From Octopus vulgaris (taxonomy: Eukaryota), in the NCBI GenBank assembly GCA_951406725.2, contig OX597815.1, positions 41,974,001 to 42,038,000 of the forward strand: a stretch of DNA of 64,000 nucleotides. The letters are read 5' to 3'. Shown one piece after another: positions 1-54,570 of this stretch; the stretch's first letter is position 1, and the number at the start of each line of letters is the position of its first letter. The position numbers and the translations under genes were made by a program. The notes beneath the pieces were generated by a model that was given only the letters and a program-made list of their open reading frames with translations, searched no databases and was not told the origin of the DNA.

Positions 1-888
1 TTGATCAGGAAATTTTTTTGTTCAAGATGTACCTTGCTCTGGCCAGCCAACTGAAATTAACAGCAACAAAGTGAAGGAGTTAGTTAAAACTAACCCCATT
101 ATATGATCAGGATGATCACAGACATTCTCCAAATATCCAAACTGAGTGTTGAAAACCATCTGCATCAACTTGGTTACATCAGCATGGCTCAATGTTTGGG
201 TCCCACATCAATTGAGTGAGGAGAACATGGCCCAACAAATGTCAATCTGTGATACATTGCAAATGCATGAAGGAAACAATCCTTTTTTTAAAGAGAATGG
301 TAACAGAGAACAAAAAAATGGATTGTCTATAACAATGTAAAGCACAAACAATCATGGGGGAAGCATGGCAAACTACCAAAAACAGCCTACAAAGCAAGAC
401 TTCCTCCGAAGAAGGTTATGCTTTCAATTTGATGGGATTGGAAATGTACCATCTTTTATGAGCTTCTTCCCATGAACAGGATTATCAGTTTGGATGTGTA
501 CTGTGACCAGCTGGACAAATTAAATGCAGCAATCGACACTTCTTTGCAGTCACAGCAAAAGTTACTGGGGCTTGGATGGAAAGTTTTGTCTACCTTCCAT
601 ATTCACCTGACCAAGTACCTTCAGATTTTCACCTGTTTCAGTCTCTTCAAAATTCATTGAATGGACAGACCTTCAACTGAAGAGAATATAAAAATTAATT
701 TGGAAAAGTTTTTCACCAGTAAAGACAGGAAATTCTTTGATCAAGGAATAATGGATCTACCCACAAGACTGCAAAAGGTACTGAAACAAAATGGCAATTA
801 CATCTTTTATTGAATTAATTGCTTGATGTTTAAAACTTGTCTTATTTTCCTTTAAAAAAGTGAAACATTTTTTTGACCAACTCAGTAT
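1..888 (+). mobile_element. Decayed mariner transposon (truncated at the window edge)
   Basis: WVPHQL motif and other frameshifted mariner transposase segments (YCDQLDKL, LGWKVL); TIR-like end near 870-888. Confidence 0.85.
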
Positions 889-34535: not shown

Positions 34536-34654
34536 ATATAAAAGACAGGATGGTCAAGAGTGGAATGCCTGATTGTAGCTCTACTCAGTCAATCTTAGCC
34601 TAGGGCTAAACAACAATAACTGGTGAAGAAAAAAAAGGAAGAATAAGTAAATAC

Positions 34655-34896
34655 CTTAATTCATCTATTTTGGCTATTAGCCCAAAATACTGTGTATATC
34701 GACTTAGTTCATCAACTTGACTTGTGATCTGGGAAAGCTCCTCAAAGAGAGGTTCCATCAGCTTTGTGTGCTTCTCAATCTCATCATGCAACGATATTTC
34801 TTCACTGCAGAATGACTTCACCCGAGATTGTGCAGCTTCAGCATTACTAATAGCTTTCTTGATCTCACTTGGGACTTCAGTACTGGCCAACGATAG
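34655..34896 (-). CDS. RINT1: RINT1 coding exon 2 (LSLASTEVPSEIKK...IAKIDEL)
   Basis: Acceptor ttttcttcag, donor AG|GTAT; 242 nt, phase 0 to 2; coiled-coil-like N-terminal region; overlaps ORF 34606..34890. Confidence 0.9.
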
Positions 34897-35256
34897 CTGA
34901 AGAAAATAAACAAAAAAAGATCAAATAAGTTTCTGAAGAAGGCAAAAGAAATGCTGATTTTTCTTTAAGTACATGTTTTTATTGTGATTTTTTTAACTGA
35001 GGAATATCAGATAAGTTCTAGACAATGTACAAAAGTTGATAAAACTAACTAAAACCCAGTAAAATGATAATAATAATAATATTCCTTTGTACTCTAGGCA
35101 CAAGGCCTGAAATTTTGGGGGAGAGGGCTAGTTATTTCACTGGTACTTATTTAATCGACCCCGAAAGGATGAAGGGCAAAGCTGACCTAGGTAGAACTTG
35201 AACACAGAATGTGAAGACAGATGAAGTGCCGCTAAGAATTTTGCCAACTTGCCACC

Positions 35257-38305: not shown

Positions 38306-38571
38306 TATTAATAAGATTCTGCGTGTCATGACATGTGTTCGAATGTTACGTCATGTTTTTGAAGGGAAATAACCCAGTTCAAACTATTATAGTTAGGCAG
38401 AATGTAAAACACAAAATAAGGGATTCATTCTAGTTTGTCTTTTAACTTTTTACATTTCTGAAAATTTTTTTGCTCTAAAAATTTCATTCACGTCTACACT
38501 GTCTTTTCATAGCTATGTATATTTTTGCATTGCAAACATCGTTCTCAGTTACCATGTAAACACCCTTCACT

Positions 38572-39135
38572 ATGGAACGAAATCGAAAACTTGCAGCAAC
38601 AAGAGAACGGATGAGACGGTACAGGCAAAGGATTAAAGACGAACAAAGAGAAGATGTAAAAGAAAGGATGAGACGAAATCAACGGATAAGACGAGCCAAC
38701 ATGAGTGAGCTTGATCGTGCCAAGTACCTACAGTATCAAAGAGAACGTCAACAAATACGAAGAGCAAAAATGAGCGATGAACAGCGAGCTGTCTATCTAC
38801 GAAAACAACGAGAGAGAGGGCAAGCGCGACGAAAGAACATGAGCGAAAAACAACAGACAGAATATAAGGAAAGACACAGAGAAAGGAATCGAATACGACG
38901 AGAAAACATGACCGAAGAACAGTTGATCAATTTAAGAAACGATCAAAGAATAAGACAACGCCAGAAACGATCTGGTGCTCGTGTGATACGGCAACAGAAT
39001 GAACAAATTACAACTGAATCCGACAGTATCGGAGAAACGGACAGATCAAGTTCTGATTGTGATTCTTTGAGAATCAGAAATGAGCCTCCAAACAGTTGTC
39101 ATAACGGTAAAGTTCGACTTCTTTCTCTTGGTTAA
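38572..39135 (+). CDS. Intact 187-aa ORF of five 23-aa STPR-like repeats, resembling a Helitron Rep/Hel N-terminus; antisense within RINT1 intron 1
   Basis: 23-aa period (RRANMSELDRAKYLQYQRERQQI / RRAKMSDEQRAVYLRKQRERGQA / RRKNMSEKQQTEYKERHRERNRI / RRENMTEEQLINLRNDQRIRQRQ); C-terminal EPPNSCHNGKVRL resembles the Helitron CCxxGKVxL motif; Kozak actATGG. Confidence 0.6.
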   Translation: MERNRKLAATRERMRRYRQRIKDEQREDVKERMRRNQRIRRANMSELDRAKYLQYQRERQQIRRAKMSDEQRAVYLRKQRERGQARRKNMSEKQQTEYKERHRERNRIRRENMTEEQLINLRNDQRIRQRQKRSGARVIRQQNEQITTESDSIGETDRSSSDCDSLRIRNEPPNSCHNGKVRLLSLG

Positions 39136-40560: not shown

Positions 40561-41202
40561 ACGAGGCATGTCTTGGTGTCGAGTCATTCATATTTTTGTT
40601 TAGTCTCAAAGTCAACTCTGATCAAGCAGACATGTAGTCAAAGAGCCTTAAGCCAACAGGTTTTGGGATCTGATCGCCATAAAGCTCAGCCATTTATGGA
40701 CGTGAAACCTAAGATAATCCCATAAACCGGTCATGTTTTGCAATTCGTTTTTCTCGGGTCATAGGTCAACAGCAGCACAATGGGGTGAGAGGTTGGGGCT
40801 GAGGGGAGGCCACATGCTGCTAAAAACTAAGACACACACATAAGGATACACATCTTAGAAGAAGAACAGAATGGAGTAAGTGGAGCAAGAAAACACGGAA
40901 CGAAATATGTCGCTGAAGAGGTCACAGATGTGTGACGAAAGATTTCCGGACAATGGACAGGCATTAAAATTATTACAACAGTAATAAACGAGTGAAGAAA
41001 AGAAAAAATATATAGTGCGTGTGATTATTTGGCAATAAATAAATAAAATGACCATCCCGAAATACAACATATATACACAATCACACACACCAGAGTAAGC
41101 ACATAAATTGTGAAACACGGTGATAAAAAATAGTACTCGAATACCACAGGTAGAGTAATATGCTTTATTATTAAAGCTGCAAAAATATCACACACAAAAA
41201 AA

Positions 41203-41242
41203 ACTGCTACTCAGAGTTTTACGTTCCCGTTCGTCGGGCAGT
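41203..41242 (-). ncRNA. Minimal hammerhead-like motif (paralog of 52572-52609; G12A, probably inactive)
   Basis: ACTGC-CCGACGA-ACG GGAA CGT-AAAA-CTCTGAG-TA-GCAGT; stem I covaries with the 52572 copy. Confidence 0.5.
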
Positions 41243-42372
41243 CGTGATCCACATACACACATATCTATATATGTCCCGTCATAGAATGACCAATGGTTTC
41301 GCATTCATAAAGGGCTTAGTCTCTTGGACGACTCGTTAGATTCTACAGCCGAAGGCCATATAGTTCTTCAAGAATATCAAATATAAATATTCTCAGCCAA
41401 GAGTACGTATGAAATATTGCCATGCTCGAATGATAGCCTTTCATATAGATGGAGATGATAAATTGAACACCGGCTCAATACGGGGACAAATTCAATTGCT
41501 TTTATTCCTAAACGTAAACGTTTTAGCCTTGTGGTAAAATGTATATTACTAGCTGAAAGTGATGGATATGACCAAGTGACTGAGATGTTATTATGTTAAA
41601 CGTTTTGTCTTATTTAATCTAGTCCACCTCCTTTCTAGATTCAAAATTGTTTTTGAGTAGAATTTTTCTTCCATCCATGTTTCGATCAAGAACACTTAGC
41701 GATTCTCATCATAGATAGAGATTAGTTTCTGAAATGTGTGCGTGCGTGTTTCTTTTGAAGGTGAAAATAGCATTAGGAAACATCGAGATCGTTCAAATTT
41801 AACGATAAATCACTGAAAGGGGAAAAAAGCAGAAAAACAAACTGGCATTGTGTTTGGAGATAATTATTAGATGTGCAGTGGAGTGATAGAAACGATAGAG
41901 CCCTGAACATAAAGCCTAACAATATTCAGTATCATTCCTCAACACTTTGAATTAAAATCTTCGAGTTCGCTTTTCATTCATCAAGGGTTAGTAAATTACT
42001 AGAGAAGAGCTGAGAATATTTAAGTCATTTATAAACTTTCCTTGTATATTTGTAGTCCTCATTAATACACAAACCCTTTTACTATCAATGAATCTTTCGA
42101 CTTTTACAAATGCCATGTGGAATTGTGTAAACAACGGAAATTTGTAAAAAGAAGGAGAGAGAAAAGGATTCAGAATGATGCTATAACAGATTCATACCAA
42201 TAAAAAAACGGCCGTTTATTCGTCTTTTCACCTGCTCTATTTGGCGGTGGTGAGGAAGACGAAAACCCCACCAAATGAGCCTATTTAACAAATCTTGAAA
42301 GTGTATGAAAAAAACAAACAAACGAACGTATATAAATATAAGAATAACCTTGAGAAAAATTTTTACGTGGCA

Positions 42373-42855
42373 ATTAACGGTGGAATTCTGGTTTAAGCAA
42401 CCCATATAACCCCACATAACTTTGGTTAACTATTTAAATTTTTTTTTTGCGAATTTGTGTTACACACGGAAATTCATACGATTATGCAAAAAAGCAAAAA
42501 AAAAGAAATTGCGTGATTTAAGGGTTATTTAGCCGTTATTTTTAGCACATCTCACGACCACCTGATACCCCCCTACTCGTTTGTCACTGACGTATTGATG
42601 TTTTTCAATATCTTTCTCCCCGTACACATTTAATTGTCTATTGCTGCTATTTAAGCAAAAATTTCGGACTGTCCGTATAAGCGATTTTTTAAAAAAAATT
42701 CGAAAAATTAAAAAACAAATTTTTTTTTTCATAGTCGTATGAATTCCCGTGTGTAGAATGCAAATACGCAAAAAAATGTTTCTGAAAATTCTAAAAAATA
42801 AAAAAAGTTACGAAGGGTTATATGGGGTACTTAAAGTAGAATTCCGCCCAATTAA
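42373..42855. mobile_element. MITE-like element with ~140-bp imperfect terminal inverted repeats
   Basis: GGAATTCT..TTTAAG..CCCATATAACCC..TAACTT..ACACACGGAAATTCATACGA versus its reverse complement at 42700-42855; TTAA near both ends. Confidence 0.7.
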
Positions 42856-43116
42856 CAAATTTGCTGAATGTCAATATTATGGGTACATTATGTACATGTC
42901 AATATGGCTTAGTGAGTCACCCACTGATGGATACTCGTCATAGGTGAATACACACAAACATATATGTGCAGGTGTGTGTATACAAACACTTAGTTAATTT
43001 ATTGTTCATTTTGTGATGTTGCATGCATTAAATATGGAAAGACAAACTTAACAGAGACAGTACACGCACACACAAAATTCACTAAGCTGTTTAACTACAA
43101 TAAAGGACTTCTTTAC

Positions 43117-43263
43117 CTTATTTTCAAGATCCTCTTTTAAGCAACAGAGATTCTTGTAGATATTTTCAACATTCCGCAGCGATCTAATATCGTCGCCAAA
43201 TTCTCTATTAAGGAAATCGATCGTGTTATTATCCACGTCGTCCTCTTCGCTGGGGGCCGCCAT
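43117..43263 (-). CDS. RINT1: RINT1 coding exon 1 (MAAPSEEDD...KEDLENK, 49 codons)
   Basis: AAAATGG start context; donor AAG|GTAAAG; ends phase 0 and joins exon 2 in frame; CpG-rich surroundings. Confidence 0.85.
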
Positions 43264-43460
43264 TTTTATATATATATTTATATATATAGTAGATAGCCGC
43301 ACATGAGTGAGTGAGTGTGAGGTAAAAATGAAAGAGATTGTAGCAGTTGTGATATATATTATGTAGACGTGCAAAAATAGATGAAGGCAGGACAAAAATT
43401 AATGTTCTTCAAGGGAGATAACTTGGAATTAAAGTCTACGTCACTTTTGACAATATGGTC
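43264..43460 (-). promoter_or_regulatory. Probable RINT1 5'UTR and core promoter
   Basis: YY1-like AAAATGGCG overlaps the ATG; CRE-like TGACGTA at 43437-43443; AAGGGAGATAACT at 43411-43423 (+ strand); locally CpG-retaining. The TSS cannot be determined from sequence. Confidence 0.5.
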
Positions 43461-46089
43461 CTTTTTCTGTAGTAATGCCCTCCTCCTTTTTTTTTTATAC
43501 GTGTGCTGTACACAATATTATGAACTGTTCCATTTGTTATAAGACTTCCTATACATGCACTGCTTTTCACTTTGAAATGTAAACATGAAGCTTTATTGTC
43601 AACAGGGTTCCAAAGTTCTTAACTCGTGTCTTTATATATGTGCACATATATATATATATATTTATATATATATTTATCCATAGCCGTACTTTCGTAAAAT
43701 GGAAATTATTGTGCGGTACCATTACATATATCTCTTTTGTTGACATATTTTACTTTAGCGAGCATTTCCACATAGATATTTTGAAATAAACGCTTATAAA
43801 ACGACAGACTATGAAAAAAATGTGTCGCTGTTAGGTTGATTCGAGTAAAAATTTCAAATAAATAAAAAGAACAGACGATAAAAGTTATTGTTTAAAACTG
43901 AATTACCTCACTATATCTAAAATAAGATTTAGCATTCCAGAGTGCAGTTAAGACATTCAAGCTTAATAAGTAATATAGTGAGTTGAGAAAATTTTTCAAA
44001 CAGGCCATGTCTGGCCCAAATATTGTTCCTGTTTTATGTTCAAACTAGTCAGATCTTGCCTTTCACACTTAACCTACAATGTCATTCTAAAAATATACAA
44101 TAACATAGTTCTATATTTAAGAGATGTGGAATTATGTACATTATTTACAGGATGAGGACAAATATCCGTCAATTGTAAATAATATAAATAATATACAATA
44201 ACATCATCGAAATCTCCAAGCTAAGGGAATAGGCATGATTAATTAAAATAATGTAAATAAACAGGCATTACATCCGACAGGGTAATCTGAATACGGAAGG
44301 GTCAACTGATTATCTCTACAGTGAATAAAACGCTTCAAATATAAAAAAAACAAAACGAAGTATGATTCTTATAATATTAGCTAAGCATATTTTCAGAAAA
44401 TAAATTTCATACAGATGGGAATGGATCTTCTCTTTAAAGTCAACTGTTGAAAGCAACAGACATGTTTTGATCTTATTAGAGCTCTTCAGCTCAGTTGACA
44501 ATATTTAGATGTGATTAATATACATAGAAAATTTGATAGAATGTGGTTATGCTTTAAAGCCAAGATCTACTCCCGTCTACAAAACGGGATTGTTTAGTAG
44601 ATGATGCTGTTTCTCATCTAATCCTGGCTCAATTAGATGCATACACCCAACTTAGGGTTTGAAACTTGAGAAATGAGAAAGTAAAAGCCAGAATCTTTCT
44701 TGTTTCTTTGATGACTTATGACCATTCAATGACCCACACACAACTGGGACTTCTTTATATCAACGAAATTGTGAATGGTTTCTTTGAAATTATACAGCAA
44801 GAGTAGTATATTTCAGACATGCAAATGTCAAATTATTATATTTCTCTCGTTTTTCCTCTTTGTAAATGAAACCACCTTTTCGGCATCCACTTTATAAGAC
44901 AGTAATACATATTGGAATAGTGCAACTGTCAAAAGATTTGTAGGCCTCTAAACTTTACATTCATTTATTTATTTATTTATTTTTGAAGAGTTTAAGATAG
45001 AAGGGGCTGTGCCTTGGACTTTTGCAGGCCCTTCAAAACTGGTGAGGTTGATGAAGATGAAGTTCACCTTAAGCATCTGTGAATCAAAAACTGAAAGGAA
45101 AATGTGGGCAAGAAAGGAATTCCAGAGGACTGATATTATGGGAAGGAAGAAGGCAGTGAGCTGGCAGAATCATTAGCATGCTGGGCAAAATGCTTAGCAG
45201 CATTTCATCTGCCTTTACATTCTGAGTTCAAATTCTGCTGAGGTTGATTTTTGCCTTTTATCCTCTCGGAGTTGATAAAATAAGTACCAGTTGAACACCA
45301 GGGTTAATATAATTGACTTCTTCCCTCTCCCAAACTTGCCGGCCTTGTGCCAAAGTTTGAAACCCATATTATGATAAGGGAGGGTTTAGCGTAGTGTTCA
45401 CTTGTAAAACTTAATTTCATTTATCTTAGTACTGAAGAAAGCCTTTTAACAGTCATTAGATTCTTATACATGAAGAGATTTTTTCGCCTTTACCTTTCTA
45501 TGCATACAAATGTTTGTTCACTTGGTGTATGCATAAAAATATTTATATCCAAATATACATACACCCTCCACACACACACACACACACACACCAGTATGGA
45601 CATATATATGTATACACATTTATATATCCATATATATCTTGAGAAGACCCATCAAGCCAAGTGAAATCACAGTTGTGGCTAATGCCAGTGTCACGTAACT
45701 GACACTTGTGCTGGTGGCATGTAAAAAGCACCCTTTGCTCATTGGGTGATATGCTGTGCTTGAGAAGACCTGTCAAGCCAAGTGAGATTGTAGTTGTTGC
45801 CGATGCTGGTGGTTTGCAACTGGCACTCATGCTGGTGGAACATGAAAAGCACCCACTGCACTCTTGGAATGTTTGGCACTAGGAAGGGCATCCAGCTGTA
45901 GAAACCATGCCAAATTAGATTAGAATCCTGGTGCAGCTCCCCATCTTACCAGTTTTCAGTCAAACCATCCAACCCATGCCAGCATGGAAAACGGATACTA
46001 AATGATGATGATGATGATATATATATGTAGAATGTTGGAAAGCGACACATGAGTTGATATGTATAAGGAAAATATGGTTAGTACTGGTT

Positions 46090-48880
46090 TCTGTCTTTTC
46101 GACTTTTTCAACAAAGAGTGACTAAGTAACTCTTTATTGAAGAAGTCAACCTACCCTCTGTAGACTGGTCCACTAATATTGTTAGACCAGGAACCTTCAC
46201 CTCAAGCTTAGACAAAGCAGCAGTGGAGTTACTTTTTAAATTTATGGTTAATTTTTTCCTGTCACAACTTGTCCATGAACCAACCAGAAATAACCAAAAT
46301 GTTTTGGACCTAGTGCTAAGCAACCATGCTAACACTATTCATAACATCACAGTGGAAAGAACCCTCCTCTCCGATCATGACATAGTTACTCTGTAACCTC
46401 AATCTTCAACATCCAAAAATTTGGCATAAATCACTAACTCCAGTACACCCATTTGATAACATGAATTTACACAAGTCAAACTGGAGTGTGATCACTCAAG
46501 ACTTGTCACAAGTGGATTGGTCCTTCACCCTTGCTTCCTCCAATACCACAGCAAACACAAATGCATGGCAATTATTTTAGGACACAGTCACCCACATATG
46601 CTCAAAACACACACCCTCACAACTCATAAACAACAGTAGGTGCAGGATTCCAAAACAGAGAAAAGTGCTCACCAGGAGAATAAAAAGAATAAACTGAAAA
46701 ATCAATACTCTAAAGTACCTATTTCTTTACTACCCACAAGGGGCTAAACACATAGAGGACAAACAAAGACAGACAAATGGATTAAGTAGATTATATCGAC
46801 CCCAGTGCGTAACTGGTACTTAATTTATCGACCCCGAAAGGATGAAAGGTAAAGTTGACCTTGGCGGAATTTGAACTCAGAACGTAATGGCAGATGAAAT
46901 ACAGCTATGCATTTCGCCCGCTGTGCTAACGTTTCTGCCAGCTTGCCACCTTAATACTCTAAAATACCACCATCAGCATCACCTCCAATTAAGAACATTA
47001 ACAATCTTGGAATCAAGGAAGCAACAACTGCAGGACTGTATAAGAACTCTCATAAACAACCAAAGAGCTGCAGAGGAAGCCTGGGATATTAAAAACATCA
47101 AGAATAATCCTAAGGTCTTTTACTCAAAAACACATAGGACCACAGTTTCCTCTATCAGCCCACTGGGTGATGGAAATGGCATCCTTCACAGTGATGCCAA
47201 AGACATGGCTGAGATCCTGCAAAATCAATACTGCTCTGTCTTCAGTGACCTTGATTCAGTTGACTCAAGCAGCTTTGCTTCTTTGAATCCTCAACATGTC
47301 CTTTCTGACATAATCTTTGATGCCACTGATATCCTAGCAGCAATAAAAGAAATCAAACCTGATTCAGCAGTGAGTCTAGACAGGTTCCCTGCTTGAGTGC
47401 TGAAGGAATGCACACAGCAACTTGCAGCTCCTCTTTAAAAGGGGGAATTAATCACTCCCTGTGAACTACCGTCCAGTCTCACTCACCTCACATATCATCA
47501 AAATATTTGAGAGAGTGTTGAGATAAAGAATAACAGCCTTCCTTGAACAAAATCATCTCCTAAATTATAACCAGCATGGCTTTCGTGGTGGAAGGGACTG
47601 TCTAACAGCTCCACTGCTTTCATGACATCTTAAATGCACTGAGTGAGAGCTCCAACATGGGTGTGATTTCAGCAAGGCCTTTGACTGAGTTGACCACAAT
47701 ATACTGGTAAAAATACTATCCAATGCTTGAGTCGGTGGAAAGTTACTTCAATGGATTAGGTATTTCTTAACAAACAGAACCCAGCATGTTGTGATTGATG
47801 GCATCCACTCAAGACCAGCAAAAGTCATCAGTGAAGTCTCTCAGGGTACTGTGCTGGGTCCACTTCTTTTTATTGTCTGTATCAATGAATTTGCAGATTC
47901 TATTGAACATAGCACCATAAAGATATTTACAGATGACACTAAGCTCCAGAAAGTCATTAAGGGAGCATATGATCAAACAATGCTTCAATTGGACTTATGT
48001 GCAGTAACCCAGTGGGCACAAAAAAAACAATATGCAGTTGAACAAAGAAAAATTTGAGCTCATCCACTTTGGAAGAGAGGACATACTCAAACAACCAATA
48101 TACACTACTGTTGGGAGACCTACTTGAACCGTTGGATAATATAAGAGATTTAAGTGTAACTGTCGACAGCAACCTTAGCTGGAGTGTGCACATCAACAAA
48201 AAAGTTGATACTGCCTGCAGAATGTGCTCATGGATCCTCAGAACTTTCCAATCTAGGGATCATGAAACCATCATCCTTCTCTTCTCCACATTCGCTGCCC
48301 TTTGTGGTCTCTCTACAAAAAACAAGACATAATGAAGATCAAAGCACCACAAAGATCAATCACAAAAAGAAAATAAATGGCATGATGGGACTTGATTATT
48401 GGGCTTGACTTAAACAGCTGAAGCTCTATTCTCTACAATGCTGCCATGAGGAAATCATTATTTGCACCACGTGGAAAATATTCCACCAATATTATCCAAA
48501 TGATATTGGTATTATGTTTACAATTCACCCAAGACTAGGCACCTGTGCAATGCGTCCCCTACAAACATCAAGATCACATCACATAAGAACATCGCGATAC
48601 AAGTTCTTCACTGCCAATGGTCCTATACTTTTCAATGTTACCCCGAAAGAAATTAAAGTTGAAAAAGACCTCGCAATTTTCAAATGGTACCTGGACAAAT
48701 TCCCCCAGGAAAAACTGGATAAACCACCTACATCTGGATACATCTCAACTAACAACAACTCTCTGCTTGTGTGGTTCATGGTGTTCCGAAATAATTAGCT
48801 AAAAGACTTTTCCAGGTGGTGCTACTGAGTTAGCCATGGCCTGGGCCGATAATGGCCAAAACCAATCTAAGTTATCTAAG
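46090..48880 (+). mobile_element. Decayed CR1-group LINE (endonuclease end, RT, 3'UTR) interrupted by a SINE at 46720-46952
   Basis: NVLDLVL and SDHDIV (endonuclease C-terminus); NQHGFR, QGTVLGPLLF, FTDDTKL (RT); many stops and frameshifts. The SINE is flanked by the 16-bp TSD AATACTCTAAA(G/A)TACC. Confidence 0.92.
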
Positions 48881-49068
48881 CTACATATATATATATATAT
48901 ATAACAATAAAGGGTAAAATTAATTAATTAATAATTAATTAATTAATAATTAATAATTTTACCAAGTAGTTCGGTATGTTAAAAGAACCATTATCGCTAA
49001 ACTTAAACAAAAACTTTTATAATTATGAGTATAATTATAATTAGGGTTCAGCAAAAATTTGCTTCACC

Positions 49069-49100
<32 letters not shown>

Positions 49101-49893
49101 ATATATATATATGTGTGTGTATCAGAATCGAAATCGATGAATGGAAATCGATCAATGGAAATTGCAGATGTGTTACCAGTGCCGGTGGCATGTAAGAGAA
49201 CCTTCCGTTTCGTGACCGTTGCCAGCACCGCCCCGTTTCGTGTCCGTTACCAGCCTCGCCTGGCTCTCGTGCCGGTGGCACATAAAAAGCACCATCCATT
49301 CGTGGCCGTTTGCCAGCTCTGTCTGGCACCTGTGCGGGTGGCACGTAAAAAGCACCCACTACACTCTCGGAGTGGTTGGCGTTAGGAAGGGCATCCAGCC
49401 GTAGAAACACTGCCAGATTTGACTGGGCCTGATGAAGCCTTCTGGCTTCACAGACCCCAGTAGAACCGTCCAACCCATGCTAGCATGGAAAACAGACGCT
49501 AAACGATGATGATGATGATGATGATGATATATATATATAATGAGATAGGGGTTGAAAATTCAACCCACCATGGGATAACATATATCCAATATACATCTAA
49601 TGGTTGATGTTTGATTGATTTAAGTATGTTTCTCCATTTTCTAATTTTGTATATATATATATATATATATATACTTATATATGTATACATGTATACATAC
49701 ACACACACATATATATATAGTTGAAATTTATAGAAAAACAAAAGACAGAGACAGGTGTATGAACAACAAGCAAGTGTATCTTGGGAAAATGGAAAAGTCT
49801 TTTACGTTTCAAGCCTATGCTCTTCAACAGAAAGGAATAAGAGAAAATAAACAGAGAGAATGAAAAAACACTTGTAGATTTCAGTGGTCCAGC

Positions 49894-49924
<31 letters not shown>

Positions 49925-50399
49925 CATGTGTGTAATGTATATATTTACATGTGTATAAGGTAAAGTATAAATAATGGTCATCAAATATTTTTCCTTTATT
50001 GGAGTAAGTTTGACATACAGCTGTTTCCAGTAGTCCTTATAGATTTGTTACTGATAGGTTTTTCAATTGGTATATTGATCAGTGAGAAAAGTTGAATGAC
50101 CTAGAAAATTAATGCTACTTTTGTTAGAGCCATTTCTTGTAATATATCTCTCTGTGTAAAAACCAGTTTGACTGGAACACTACCACAGATTTACAATATA
50201 GAAAGGTGTTGAACTATAACCTCGGACCCTGCCATGGAATGTTTGGAGATCTTTACTAATCTAAATAATATTGTTAGCCTGGTGTGCTAAGAGAGAGCTT
50301 ATGAAGTATTTTGCCTGGACTGATAATCCCTCAGCAATAAATCTATGCATGTGTATATATATATATTTAAAAGAAAGTAAGAAAATGAGTGGCTGTGTG

Positions 50400-50812
50400 G
50401 AGGCGCAGGAGTGGCTGTGTGGTAAGTAGCTTGCTTACCAACCACATGGTTCCGGGTTCAGTCCCACTGCGTGGCATCTTGGGCAAGTGTCTTCTGCTAT
50501 AGCCCCGGGCCGACCAATGCCTTGTGAGTGGATTTGGTAGACGGAAACTGAAAGAAGCCTGTCGTATATATGTATATATATATATATATGTGTGTGTGTG
50601 TTTGTGTGTCTGTGTTTGTCCCTCTAGCATTGCTTGACAACCGATGCTGGTGTGTTTACGTCCCCGTCACTTAGCGGTTCGGCAAAAGAGACCGATAGAA
50701 TAAGTACTGGGCTTACAAAGAATAATTTCGGGGGTCGATTTGCTCGACTAAAGGCGGTGCTCCAGCATGGCCGCAGTCAAATGACTGAAACAAGTAAAAG
50801 AGTAAAAAGTAA
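50400..50812 (+). mobile_element. Full-length abundant tRNA-derived SINE (GGCTGTGTGGTAAG head, internal (TA)(TG) tract, CAAGTAAAAGA tail); further copies near 12420, 19830, 20915(-), 21770(-), 22740(-), 31145, 54575(-), 59400, 59790
   Basis: A box TGGCTGTGTGG, B-box-like GGTTCAGTCC; many dispersed copies in the window. Assigning it to a named octopus SINE needs a Repbase/Dfam search. Confidence 0.92.
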
Positions 50813-50814
50813 AA

Positions 50815-50962
50815 GAGAATATAACATTTAACAAAGATTTATTATCTGCAAAATCCCAAACATGCTCACTTACAGCTGTTTCAATTCGGCCTAATTGAAA
50901 CCACTGTAAGGGAGCATGTTTGATTTTTTAAGGTAATAAATTTTTATTAAATGTTATATCTC
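50815..50962. repeat. ~150-bp imperfect palindrome
   Basis: ATAACATTTAA..AAACATGCTC..TTACAG..TTTCAATT cggcct AATTGAAA..CTGTAA..GAGCATGTTT..TTAAATGTTAT. Confidence 0.85.
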
Positions 50963-51341
50963 CCTTTTTCTTACTTTCTCTTGAATGATTATAAACCATG
51001 ATTTATATATAAACCTATTGTTTTATGAATATTATTATTCACAAAAAAATATAAGGTATTAAACCAGTAATTCATTGGATGATACTATCCCTTAATGAGG
51101 ATCCCCGGTCGAACCGTCCAACCCATGCTAGCATGGAGAACGGACGTTAAACGATGATGATGATGATGATGATATATGTATGTATATATATATATATGTG
51201 TGTGTGTATAGCAATAGAGCAATTTAGCCGTTATTTCTAACAATGTAGGTGTTTTTAACACCCTAGTCACATTTAGTGACATTTAATATAATTCTCCTTT
51301 TTGGTGAAACATAGTAACTTGCTGTTTACATTAATTTCTTA

Positions 51342-51389
<48 letters not shown>

Positions 51390-51513
51390 TAAGAGTAAAG
51401 ATAAAATCTATATTTGATTTTATCAGGTAGTCAGCATGTAATAACCAATTAAAATTAAAAATTAATAGAATATATATATATATATATATATAATATATAA
51501 TTTTATAAGTATA

Positions 51514-52554
51514 CTAGCTGGGGCACCCGGTAATTCCTGGAAAATGGGACTTATTCCTTGGTTCCGTTCTCATAATTGTTCACTAATCCAATAACAATAA
51601 ATAAAATTATGTAGCCCTTAAAATGGTTTTTGTACATTTACAGAGAATACTAAACTGTCTTACACAGGATCTTGTTTTTAGGAAATCCTAATAAGTTATG
51701 AATACCCAAATCATGAAGTCAGTTATGTAGTAACATGAAATTAGTTACCCGATAGTAAGAATTCAAATAAAGTACCCCCCAAAAGGGCTTTAATACGTTT
51801 CCAGAGTGTATAGAACTTAGGAGGAAATACCAATAAAGTATGTATGTATACCAAAATTATGAAGCATGTTACATAATACCAGGCTTGGTAGAGTTTATGG
51901 TGATCAAAGGAAAATAAATGGGTTATTTCCCTTGGCTGTTAAGGGGAAATATATTGGTTATATATGTGGACCACTTATATATTTTTTATTAAACTTCAAT
52001 AAACCTAGTAACAAACAGGATGTTACTTTAACATGTTTGCAAATTTTCACAGCAACTTCAAAGATTTGAATAACTCCTATATTTAACTCTGTTTCTTTAT
52101 TTATCTGTTGTACAAAAACATTTCACTGAACCCTGGAATTTCTACCTTTATAAGTGGGCTGTAACAGCTTTAGTACTTATGTGAATTTTTTGCTACCCTG
52201 GTAACTATTTATTTATTTCCTCCATGTTACTTGTACACATTGAAAAAAATACACATACATTTATATATATAGTAGCAGTATCTCACGGCGTTGCTCGGGT
52301 TTGTAAGGGAAATAACTATAAAGCATTTTTAGAGAGTTACTTCCCTTATATTTAAAAGAATATGCATTAAAATGGAAAAGATGATGGTAAATTATTTTTT
52401 AAATCGTAGACGTGCGCTAATACCCAGAAGGGCTCGATATGAATCACGACTATAAGATACCCGGTTTTGGTTAAACTGCACCGCAAAATGTGGGAGTAGT
52501 TAGGAATCTAAATCGGAGTAGACAGACACACAACCTTACTTTTATATATAAAGA
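51514..52554 (-). mobile_element. Two abutting non-autonomous Helitrons (51514-~52271 and 52272-52554)
   Basis: CTAG with an adjacent GC hairpin at 51514-51540. The second element's 3' end is the near-identical reverse complement of 30275-30339, and its 5' end is A|TCTTTATATATAAAA. Confidence 0.75.
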
Positions 52555-52571
52555 TATATATATATATAAAA

Positions 52572-52609
52572 CTGTCCGATGAACGGCAACGGGAAACTCA
52601 GAGTAACAG
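52572..52609 (+). ncRNA. Minimal type-I hammerhead ribozyme-like motif
   Basis: CTGT-CCGATGA-ACG GCAA CGG-GAAA-CTCAGAG-TA-ACAG, followed by AATAAA and (TA)n. Confidence 0.55.
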
Positions 52610-52641
52610 GTTTTGCTGAATTTTCTGCTGCTTTAAATAAA

Positions 52642-52684
<43 letters not shown>

Positions 52685-52708
52685 CACACACACACACACA
52701 TATATATA

Positions 52709-53963
52709 CACGGAGAGTCAAAAATTATATGCACTCTTGATTTTTCAATGAATTTACACAAAAGCAGGGGATAAACAAGTACATCACATTTCCATATATG
52801 TCTCCTTCCTTTTCGATGCACTTGGTCCAGCAGTCCACACACTTGCGTATTCCCTTGAAGAAGAAGGTTTTCAGTTGGTTGTGCAACCATTTATGCACTG
52901 CTGCCTTCACATCTTCATCTGTAGGAAATGAACGACCTTGTAAACCATCTTTGAATGGTCCAAAGATATGATAGTCGGAAGAAGTGAGATCTGGGCTGTA
53001 AGCAGGGTGTTCTAGGAGCCCAAAACAAAATTGGTTAATGGTTCCAATAGTCTAGGCAGCTGTTTGTAACAACAGGCTTTGGAGTTTCATATGAATTGCT
53101 GGCTTCAGTTAGTTGGCCAGCAAAGCACTATATCTTACGCTCTTGATTCTACACTCATTTTCCAGGTATTCTTCCAGTATAGGCCCTTTTGAGTCCCCAA
53201 AAAGGGTTAGCATCACCTTTCTTGTCAAAGGCTGAGTGTCGAATTTCTTCATTGCTAGCAAGCCAAGATGTTTCCACTCCATACTCTGTCTTTTGGATTC
53301 TGCCCCATAATGATGGACCCATGTTTCGTCTCCTGTGACTATTCTGCTCAAAAATTCTTCGCCCTCATTATAGTGACTGAGTAAATGTTGGCAGACCTCA
53401 AGATGTTTGAGCTTGTGTTCTGTGGTAAGCTCTTTTGGCACCCATCTTGCACAGACTTTATAGAAGCTGAGCTCATTGTGGACGATTTGATTGGTAGAAC
53501 CATGACTAATCTGCAGAGAACAAGCTACCTCATTGATGATAAGTTGCCAGTTCACTATTACCATCTCTTGAGCTTGCTGAATTTTCCTTGTCAGTGGTGG
53601 AGGTTGATGGGCATGCTACTCCCTCTACATGCATCACACCTGTCCAGCTACTTTTAAACTTCTCAATCCGCTTTAAACACTTCTACAGAGTAGTGCACTG
53701 TCCCCATATTGTGCTAAGAGCCCCTGATGAATTTCAGCACCTGACACACATTCTGGCCAGAGAAATCAGATCACTATTCTTTGTTCTTCTTTGGTGCACA
53801 TTGCTAGTGGAACAGCCATGCTTACACTATAAATCCAGAAAGAAAAATGGCGTAATCAGGCTCAAACTTCAATCATGTGACCACCATAGTACCAACTATA
53901 AGTATGCATGCACAGAAGATATGATATGGCGGAAGTGTAGATAATTTTTGATTTCCCCTTGTG
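52709..53963 (-). mobile_element. Near full-length decayed mariner (~1.25 kb) with both TIRs
   Basis: ORF 53109..53564 has CARWVPKEL and IVTGDETWVHHY; PAYSPDLTSSDY downstream; TIRs CACGGAGAGTCAAAAATTATATGCACT and AGTGTAGATAATTTTTGATTTCCCCTTGTG. Confidence 0.92.
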
Positions 53964-53982
53964 TTTATTTATATATAAATAC

Positions 53983-54014
<32 letters not shown>

Positions 54015-54156
54015 GTTATGAGAGATAATGGTGTCATTAAGACCCAAAGGTGTCAGGTAATGCTGAATAAGTGCTATAGATGGACTGCTGTTAAGTTCCA
54101 GGTTCAGTGATTATGCAAATAAGGGGTTCAACGTTGGTCATATGTCAGCGTGTGTA

Positions 54157-54570
54157 TATAATAAATTTTTTTATTTCATAATGAGATAAAAAACCAAGGT
54201 TGTGTAGATTTTAGAACATTTATAGATAGGTCTTACAGCTGTTTCCAGGATATTTATTATATCCCTTCATCGGAGACGGTGTGAGAGGATGGTTAAGAAA
54301 TAGTTAATTTAGATAAGATATAAGATAGAGAGTGAGGTAGAGGAAATAAAAGGAAATAGATGTGAGATATGTAGGGTTATTGCATTTGTAGATCCATTTT
54401 TTAGGCAGAATGTTATACATATAATATTCCAGTACCTTATGAGTAAAATCCAATAGATGGATATTATAAATATCCTGGAAACAGCTCTAAGACATTCTAT
54501 CTATAAATGTTCTTAAATCTAAACAGCCTTGGTTTTTTTTATCTCATTACGAAATAAAAATATTTATATA
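54157..54570. mobile_element. Foldback, Penelope-pLTR-like element with ~105-bp inverted arms and a hammerhead-like motif
   Basis: Arms 54157-54262 and 54459-54570 are reverse complements; minus-strand motif at 54230-54277. Confidence 0.7.
54230..54277 (-). ncRNA. Minimal type-I hammerhead ribozyme-like motif
   Basis: GTCT-CCGATGA-A GGGATAT aataa ATATCCT G-GAAA-CAGCTG-TA-AGAC: stem I GTCT/AGAC, stem II, palindromic stem III, GUA triplet; core has C at position 4. Confidence 0.6.

What the first reader, a model, noticed from the sequence alone, without database searches (positions are those of the whole stretch)
41203..54277. Minimal hammerhead-like motifs with a recurrent non-canonical CCGANGA core and covarying stems
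Seen: three motifs (41203-41242 -, 52572-52609 +, 54230-54277 -) follow the layout stem I, CcGANGA, stem II, GAAA, short (quasi-)palindromic stem III, UA, stem I; the 41203 copy has AAAA in place of GAAA. The first two are paralogs with a compensatory stem I change (CTGC/GCAG versus CTGT/ACAG) and a GNRA-preserving loop change (GGAA versus GCAA). The third has unrelated stems but the same U4C core, and shares an A-G opposition at the base of stem II with the 52572 copy. Known: Penelope-like element pLTRs carry minimal type-I hammerheads with palindromic helix III, proposed to act as dimers; the canonical core is CUGANGA. Inference: U4C is a fixed variant in at least two repeat families here, not random decay.
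Basis: partly seen in the sequence, partly recalled or inferred. Interest (0 to 1): 0.72.

Follow-up and report, generated by a model that had tools for sequence, protein, structure and literature searches.

The report
Retrotransposon hammerheads with altered catalytic core
The three motifs are broken-off tail ends of Penelope-like jumping genes whose small hammerhead RNA motif carries a C where a U is normally fixed, a change shared by thousands of copies in four element lineages of this genome; it likely slows self-cutting (untested), which would mean these elements probably spread without needing fast cutting.

Summary
Observation confirmed at all three coordinates (4 hits in 200 shuffles). 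The motifs are 3'-end (pLTR) type I hammerheads of 5'-truncated Hydra-clade Penelope-like elements: longer copies of both families follow an RT/GIY-YIG-type ORF and many carry the Penelope inverted partial copy. U4C is inherited, not decay: motif 2 subfamily 28 of 28 intact copies; a third, intact 717-aa Hydra element has C4 in 35 of 35 readable hammerheads; a fourth short family has about 75% C4 among 10,511 matches. But C4 is fixed per subfamily, not per family: every lineage has U4 sisters, the youngest A subfamily likely reverted to U4, most hammerheads in a random 600 kb are canonical (23 U4, 8 C4), and another abundant family carries A6U. Motif 1 is a dead copy (G12A). Cleavage is untested; only one stem pair clearly covaries. 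PLE hammerheads and U4C (viroid, viromes) are each known; I found no report of U4C in PLEs (Lünse 2017 unreadable). This scan noted U4C before in phage hammerheads and truncated Penelope hammerheads in another genome. Verdict: new variant of a known kind.

The parts
41203..41242 (-). Motif 1: type I minimal hammerhead, old subfamily of lineage A (C4, GGAA loop); copy-specific G12A, so predicted inactive
   Evidence: G at position 12 in 89 of first 100 subfamily matches, A in 7 (hand count)
41089..41242 (-). 5'-truncated lineage A element (hammerhead plus tail), in an intron of the RINT1-like gene, sense strand
   Evidence: blastn 78.6% to young lineage A 3' end; copies genome-wide
52572..52609 (+). 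Motif 2: type I minimal hammerhead, C4/G subfamily of lineage A, core otherwise intact, predicted cleavage after GUA (52605)
   Evidence: 1,204 exact matches of its 32-nt 3' part
52568..52647 (+). 80-nt truncated lineage A element between (TA)n tracts, without the tail extension
54230..54277 (-). Motif 3: type I minimal hammerhead of lineage B (C4 subfamily), 7-bp stem II, palindrome ACAGCUGU
54124..54455 (-). 5'-truncated lineage B element (3' UTR end, hammerhead, tail); likeness continues by eye to about 54060
   Evidence: blastn 89% to ORF-linked copy L318
54459..54557 (+). Inverted partial copy at the 5' end of the lineage B element, holding only the 3' half of the hammerhead (Penelope-type inversion)
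   Evidence: 90%, 100 nt
49799..49834 (-). Fourth hammerhead-like repeat (family F) with A6U core; not in the finding

Best explanation
The three motifs are the pseudo-LTR hammerheads of 5'-truncated Hydra-clade Penelope-like retrotransposon copies, and their C4 was copied from master elements that carried it; in a full element two such motifs likely pair through the palindromic stem III and likely cut slowly after GUA/GUU, probably helped by the element's own protein, and cutting is probably too loosely tied to copying for selection to keep the faster U4. Shown: element identity, inheritance of C4, U4 sisters in each lineage, the palindrome's inability to fold alone. Inferred: dimer pairing, residual activity, weak selection on rate. 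C4 was gained or lost several times (lineages A, B, C, E), while the other ten core letters stayed fixed in these lineages. The individual window copies are passive relics; motif 1 has lost the general base G12.
For: ORF link: 18 of the 19 C4 hammerheads in 25 long lineage A loci lie about 1.1-1.4 kb (one farther) behind a Hydra-type RT/EN hit; 5 of 25 lineage B loci have a collinear EN hit, all five with C4. L163 is pLTR-ORF-pLTR with C4 in both repeats and all Hydra motifs (RWK, DKT, CxCX5C, CxxC, CxH). C4 counts unbiased for position 4: 28 of 28 intact, 35 of 35 readable, 19 CG/6 TG/4 CA/1 AG of 30 in the old A subfamily, i.e. symmetric CpG decay from C4. C4 forms a CpG with G5 (window CpG o/e 0.39), so return to U4 is mutationally easy, yet C4 lasted from the 7%-diverged to the 1.8%-diverged subfamily and U4 copies nest inside C4 copies in a tree with positions 4-5 masked (99/95 clade, midpoint root). 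Palindromes give no hairpin but a duplex of -7.4 to -11.1 kcal/mol. Literature: U4C lowers in vitro activity yet supports a viroid in vivo (PMC3088659); a PLE hammerhead cleaves only with the PLE protein and its catalytic mutants do not affect insertion in vitro (PMC11167929); minimal PLE hammerheads cut weakly as dimers (PMC4209133).
Against: No cleavage was measured or seen; runs were contigs only. In a type III hammerhead all single changes of the CUGA turn gave low activity (PMC9901934), and these motifs lack tertiary contacts, a G10.1-C11.1 pair (lineages A, B) and, in A, have a 2-3 bp stem II; monomer minimum-energy folds are not the hammerhead fold. Family F spread with A6U, which fits loss of catalysis as well as slow catalysis. 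U4 families outnumber C4 ones in the random sample (23 versus 8 hits) and the youngest A subfamily is U4, which could mean U4 is favoured. Covariation tests were not significant.
Confidence: 0.55

Rival explanations
1. The C4 motifs no longer cut at all; the fold is kept as a structural signal for the element's protein (RNA recognition or positioning of reverse transcription), so core letters can drift.
For: Family F spread with A6U across four N7 variants (28 distinct copies, 6 in 600 kb). Hammerhead mutants do not affect PLE insertion in vitro and no RNA-seq reads end at the cut site in anole (PMC11167929). Naiads multiply without canonical hammerheads (PMC8557442). Weak stems and non-hammerhead monomer folds.
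Against: In the C4 subfamilies of four lineages G5, A6, G8, A9, G12, A13, A14, A15.1, U16.1 and a cleavable H17 all stay fixed in the majority sequences while N7 and the stems change; pure loss of catalysis should have let G8, G12 or H17 go too. U4C is a known active-but-slow natural variant.
Confidence: 0.25
2. C4 is favoured: slower or switchable cutting lets more full-length RNA reach reverse transcription, possibly through an alternative pairing of position 4 with the base before G12.
For: Repeated gains of the same change in four lineages against CpG decay. Position 4 and the base before G12 are complementary in the C/G and U/A subfamilies of both A and B. The intact young family C is C4.
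Against: That pairing fails in old A (C/U), family C (C/U), E (C/C) and the C/A subfamily of B. The youngest and largest A subfamily is U4. U-to-C is a common transition and may simply be the least harmful core change.
Confidence: 0.12
3. RNA editing is involved: C4 is edited back to U in transcripts, or A-to-I editing of the antisense arm of inverted copies created C4 before reverse transcription.
For: Inverted copies that would form long double-stranded RNA are common; heavy A-to-I editing in coleoid cephalopods is recalled knowledge, not from a call.
Against: A 2,472-nt contig from a run guessed to be RNA spans the family C ORF to the core with C4 unchanged; no C-to-U editing system is known to me in this group (recalled); copies from inverted arms are not expected to found master lineages.
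Confidence: 0.05
4. Chance look-alikes or independent decay of canonical copies.
For: Motif 1 is a decayed copy (G12A in 7 of 100).
Against: Shuffle and reversed-sequence controls (4 in 200 shuffles; 39 versus 5 hits); thousands of exact copies with control 0-2; decay runs from C4 to TG/CA, not towards it.
Confidence: 0.02

Closest known systems
Hammerheads of Hydra-clade PLEs (Craig et al. 2021, PMC8557442, File S2)
   Same: Type I, 3' end of the element, 8-9-nt palindromic stem III, mismatch flanking stem II, (TA)n targets; Hydra-2_aMil has the same stem I and stem III as lineage A; an octopus family (Hydra-1_oBim) is listed and its protein resembles family C by eye.
   Different: All 26 Hydra rows in that table have U4; here three Hydra lineages have C4 subfamilies.
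Minimal PLE hammerheads (Cervera and de la Peña 2014, PMC4209133; Lünse et al. 2017, not readable here)
   Same: pLTR location, palindromic stem III, predicted dimer action, thousands of dispersed truncated copies; their U3-A8 core variant also occurs in this genome.
   Different: No CCGA core in the supplement text I searched (0 versus 58 CUGA); their descriptor demanded the canonical boxes, so C4 would have been missed.
Natural U4C hammerheads (viroid variant cited in Perreault et al. 2011, PMC3088659; CYGANGA hammerheads of deep-sea viromes, PMC13481778)
   Same: Same single core change.
   Different: Those are viroid or virome motifs, typically with tertiary contacts (recalled); here it sits in minimal motifs without them and is multiplied by retrotransposition.
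Poseidon element PAc of Anolis (Frangieh et al. 2024, PMC11167929; author name recalled)
   Same: PLE with pLTR hammerhead and a tail present at only one end of insertions, as seen in lineage A copies.
   Different: Canonical core, other clade; protein-assisted cleavage was measured there, not here.

Membership tests
Type I hammerhead ribozyme | Three stems around C3-U4-G5-A6-N7-G8-A9, G12-A13-A14, A15.1-U16.1, H17 | tested here: inconclusive
   Layout met; U4 not met in all three; G12 not met in motif 1
Type I hammerhead ribozyme | Stem pairing supported by covariation | tested here: inconclusive
   Pair 2.1/1.1 kept in 53 of 54 through UA/UG/CG, but whole-structure scores not above shuffles; alignment partly constrained by my search patterns
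Type I hammerhead ribozyme | Site-specific self-cleavage after H17 | not testable with these tools
   Only assembled contigs were available
Type I hammerhead ribozyme | Match to an Rfam hammerhead model | tested here: not met
   No hammerhead family at E up to 1 in the window
PLE minimal hammerhead | Palindromic stem III unstable alone, stable as a duplex of two copies | tested here: met
   Hairpin 0.0, duplex -7.4 to -11.1 kcal/mol
PLE minimal hammerhead | Located in the pLTR / 3' end behind an RT plus GIY-YIG-type ORF | tested here: met
   lineages A, B; family C, both pLTRs
PLE minimal hammerhead | Extra base after A9 and G10.1-C11.1 pair | tested here: not met
   Lineages A and B have a mismatch or A-U at the base of stem II, as in several published Hydra rows; family E meets it
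Penelope-like element insertion | 5' truncation, inverted partial copy, tail at one end, microsatellite target | tested here: met
Hydra clade of PLEs | RWK, DKT, CxCX5C linker, CxxC and CxH in a C-terminal EN, under 3 kb, (TA)n target | tested here: met
   Family C ORF has all five motifs
Hydra clade of PLEs | Same motifs in the ORFs of the window's own lineages A and B | tested here: inconclusive
   A: only a 507-aa 3' part held, 42% identical to family C, CxxC and CxH present, first linker C replaced, N-terminal motifs not covered. B: only degraded EN hits at about 30%
Hydra clade of PLEs | Placement in a PLE-wide RT phylogeny | not tested
   No reference PLE proteins were available as session sequences
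Non-LTR retrozyme | Head-to-tail tandem units each with a hammerhead | tested here: not met
   No tandem array at the three sites; copies are dispersed or inverted pairs

The most novel reading that the evidence does not exclude
Penelope-like elements in this cephalopod have repeatedly tuned down or uncoupled their hammerhead: U4C arose or was lost independently in four lineages, including an intact, recently amplified element, and A6U in a fifth, giving well over ten thousand ribozyme-like copies invisible to standard searches and natural U4/C4 sister pairs that show catalysis rate is not what PLEs keep the motif for.
Probability: 0.3. Interest if true: 0.65.

Novelty: new variant of a known kind. 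Interest (0 to 1): 0.45.

Why it matters
Why PLEs keep a hammerhead is an open question: the motif is near universal in them, yet cuts poorly and is dispensable for insertion in vitro. Sister subfamilies that differ at position 4 but are otherwise nearly identical, and an intact young element with C4 in both repeats, give natural matched pairs for testing it. Practically, CUGANGA descriptors and Rfam miss about a fifth of the hammerhead-like motifs in a random sample of this genome (8 of 37), so 'no hammerhead' calls for PLE families may need a second look with CYGANGA.

Tried and rejected
Rfam scan: only microsatellite-driven miRNA hits, no hammerhead. Pfam finds nothing in the Hydra ORFs and the PDB search nothing useful, so the clade call rests on published motifs. 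Sequencing runs: no RNA holder listed on record; 14 holders are only guessed to be RNA and all are contigs; laying 4 runs each on family C and lineage A showed no joints or ends that bear on cleavage, and the lineage A lay is uninformative at position 4 because contigs break near it. Metagenome scan for the C4 core with the lineage A/C palindrome: 119 stretches, 3 pass a weak stem filter, all GC-rich, not interpretable. My first family A pattern fixed the base before G12 and so excluded the U4 sister subfamily; one search corrected this. A propagating G12A subfamily was considered because 8 of 40 neighbours of motif 1 had it (query-biased) and rejected (7 of 100). Strict covariation of position 4 with the base before G12 was considered and rejected (exceptions in four subfamilies). 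The PLE ORF beside motif-2-type copies in L006 and L020 belongs to other elements with their own hammerheads. Papers not held: Lünse 2017 (three ids), Ambrós and Flores 1998.
Full report
Setting. The window lies on contig C2 of a 2.8-Gb genome in 227 contigs. It is AT-rich (GC 0.35, CpG o/e 0.39) and full of microsatellites and short repeats. A RINT1-like gene runs on the minus strand: two exons hit Pfam RINT1_TIP1; further exons at about 34606-34920 and 43048-43398 are my reading without a Pfam hit. Motif 1 would lie in an intron of it, motifs 2 and 3 upstream. That the animal is a coleoid cephalopod, probably an octopus, is my inference from genome features and from the likeness by eye of a local element to the published Hydra-1_Obim protein.

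Observation. The three motifs are exactly as described. The descriptor finds two intact-GAAA hits in 64 kb, both C4, against 4 hits in 200 shuffles. Rfam finds no hammerhead.

They are repeat ends. Motif 2 as query gave 62 matches among 40 scored of 319 candidates, many with an adjacent inverted partial copy; motif 3 gave 43 among 40 of 3,318; motif 1 gave 52 among 40 of 3,437. Lineage A copies end either just behind the hammerhead or after a further tail of about 80 nt, into (TA)n, the pattern described for PLEs (PMC8557442, passages; PMC11167929, passages). Following the 3' UTR upstream links both families to ORFs. Lineage A: of 25 loci picked with the UTR of a C4 copy, 24 have RT/EN hits, 20 show a hammerhead, 19 of these C4 and 1 U4 (the query favours the C4 subfamily). 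Lineage B: of 25 loci, 19 show the hammerhead and 5 have a collinear EN hit upstream, at about 30% identity. A third family (C), found by chance beside a motif 2 copy, has an intact 717-aa ORF, at least 150 matches at 94-100% (the scoring cap), and in L163 two direct repeats each with the hammerhead. Its ORF has the five Hydra-clade motifs (definition) and is 42% identical to the lineage A ORF.

Is C4 inherited? Counts from lists are my hand counts of the first 100 rows, which come from the start of the genome order and are not biased for the base asked about. Motif 2 subfamily: 1,204 exact matches; of the first 30 loci 28 have an intact stem I and all 28 are C4, two are cut at an inversion junction. 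That pattern fixed the base before G12. With it free, lineage A has 7,204 matches: 54 U4 with A before G12; 22 C4G5 and 1 C4A5 with G; 16 C4G5, 2 U4G5 and 2 C4A5 with U; 2 C4 with C; 1 C4 with A. The old subfamily of motif 1 (30 loci, unbiased at position 4) has 19 CG, 6 TG, 4 CA, 1 AG: near-symmetric CpG decay from a C4 master. Lineage B: 3,056 matches, first 100 = 44 CG, 43 TG, 8 CA, 5 other (one search agrees with 51 C, 46 T, 3 A of 3,460). The TG excess reflects true U4 sister subfamilies with their own flanks (L151, L152, L157, L158, L216); within the motif 3 subfamily C4 dominates (27 CG, 7 TG, 2 CA among rows ending CTG, partly query-biased). Family C: 28 of 30 protein-picked loci gave 36 rows, one cut by the locus edge; all 35 readable are C4 (34 CG, 1 CA), while diverged sisters are U4. 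Family E, a short repeat of about 200 nt with a fairly fixed 5' end and no ORF link found: 10,511 matches, first 100 = 75 CG, 20 TG, 3 CA, 2 AG. So C4 is a subfamily character in four lineages, each with U4 relatives.

History. Divergence from the subfamily majority is 7.3% for old A (15 copies), 1.8% for C4/G (29) and 1.6% for U4/A (8); 20 copies were left unassigned. In a tree of 45 of 84 copies with positions 4-5 masked, the U4 copies nest inside C4 copies within a 99/95 clade; the root is by midpoint and the bootstrap had not settled. An ORF-end tree separates the young U4 group with 100/100. A return to U4 in the youngest A subfamily is the simplest reading; I ran no AU test. Independent gains in B, C and E are inferred from their U4 sisters and from the all-U4 published Hydra table (26 of 26 rows), not from rooted trees. 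Motif 1's AAAA is copy decay: G 89, A 7, T 3, C 1 of 100.

How special is position 4? In 60 evenly chosen 10-kb stretches the descriptor gave 39 hits: 23 canonical, 8 U4C (7 family E, 1 lineage A), 6 U3-A8, 2 others, against 5 in the reversed control. Allowing any one core change added scattered single changes and 4 A6U hits. These belong to family F, in which A6U is the rule (24 of 28 distinct copies have U6), with one copy in the window (49799-49834). Thus U4C is the commonest but not the only family-level departure, which counts against reading C4 as a uniquely compensated variant.

Structure. Stem III cannot fold alone but two copies form a duplex of -7.4 to -11.1 kcal/mol; monomer minimum-energy folds are not the hammerhead, and dimer folds of the three motifs use the central duplex but partly mispair the core. 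In 54 lineage A copies the 2.1/1.1 pair is kept as UA, UG or CG in 53; whole-structure measures do not beat shuffles (27/500 for cells changed on both sides, 70/500 for the score), though they beat slid partners. The alignment was partly fixed by my patterns.

Mechanism. From established work: minimal PLE hammerheads cut weakly, as dimers (PMC4209133, parts 1-2 of 4 and supplement; review PMC6765202, passages); an anole PLE hammerhead needs the element's protein and is dispensable for insertion in vitro (PMC11167929, passages); U4C lowers activity but sustained a viroid (PMC3088659, section 8 and passages); single changes in the CUGA turn gave low activity in a mutational scan (PMC9901934, passages). 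I therefore favour slow, dimer- and protein-assisted cutting under weak selection for speed (0.55) over a non-cutting structural signal (0.25), selection for C4 (0.12) or editing (0.05). The retention of all other catalytic letters through several master generations is the main reason to think some cutting remains; family F is the main reason to doubt it. RNA data gave nothing decisive.

Novelty. PLE hammerheads, Hydra hammerheads and octopus Hydra elements are published; U4C is published for a viroid and allowed as CYGANGA in a virome survey (PMC13481778, section 5 and passages). Searches for U4C with PLEs found nothing: and supplements. I could not read Lünse et al. 2017, with about 150,000 PLE-linked variants (number recalled), nor Ambrós and Flores 1998; figures are not held, and the Craig supplement was cut when stored, so C4 may already be shown there. 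Also seen: bioRxiv 10.64898/2026.07.22.740005 (part 1 of 5), PMC6962438 and PMC6155905 (passages), with nothing on C4 in what I read. Earlier AI notes of this scan report U4C in phage hammerheads and truncated Penelope hammerheads in another genome; I did not check them. Verdict: a real, well-supported new variant of a known kind; interest 0.45.

Noticed in passing
window 49799-49834 (-); also L046, L058, L202, L217, L219 and others: Family F: abundant short repeat with a hammerhead layout whose core has A6U in 24 of 28 copies, with intact stem II, GAAA and CG palindrome; 6 copies in a random 600 kb. No ORF link tested.
   Followed up: partly
L226-L245 (G000 C1), 10,511 matches: Family E: about 200-nt hammerhead-bearing repeat with a fairly fixed 5' end, SINE-like, mostly C4 with a U4 minority that has its own flanking changes; possibly a non-autonomous PLE derivative related to family F.
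   Followed up: partly
L163 1672-4531; L161; L162: Intact, recently amplified Hydra-clade PLE (717-aa frame, RT motif YKDD, two pLTRs, at least 150 near-identical ORF matches); Pfam does not recognise it.
   Followed up: yes
L006 1720-1760 (-): PLE with a GIY-YIG endonuclease and a CxxC linker (Neptune-like, label recalled) whose hammerhead has the U3-A8 core; several U3-A8 families occur in the genome.
   Followed up: partly
L119 about 700-790 (+) with an inverted copy before it: Another C4 hammerhead with a long stem II and the ACAGCUGU palindrome, apparently a further family.
   Followed up: no
lineages A and B: Position 4 is complementary to the base before G12 in the C/G and U/A subfamilies of both lineages, but not in four other subfamilies; unexplained, probably coincidence.
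   Followed up: partly
window about 12020-43400 (-): RINT1/TIP1-family gene with long introns; motif 1 sits in sense orientation in a 5' intron but lacks G12.
   Followed up: partly
window 38560-39135 (+): 191-aa frame rich in R/Q/E repeats without Pfam match, antisense in a RINT1 intron; possibly the N-terminal part of a Helitron-like element (recalled resemblance, untested).
   Followed up: no
window 52725-53615 (-) and 46130-48800 (+): Degraded mariner-type transposase between motifs 2 and 3, and a degraded LINE reverse transcriptase upstream of RINT1 (Pfam).
   Followed up: partly
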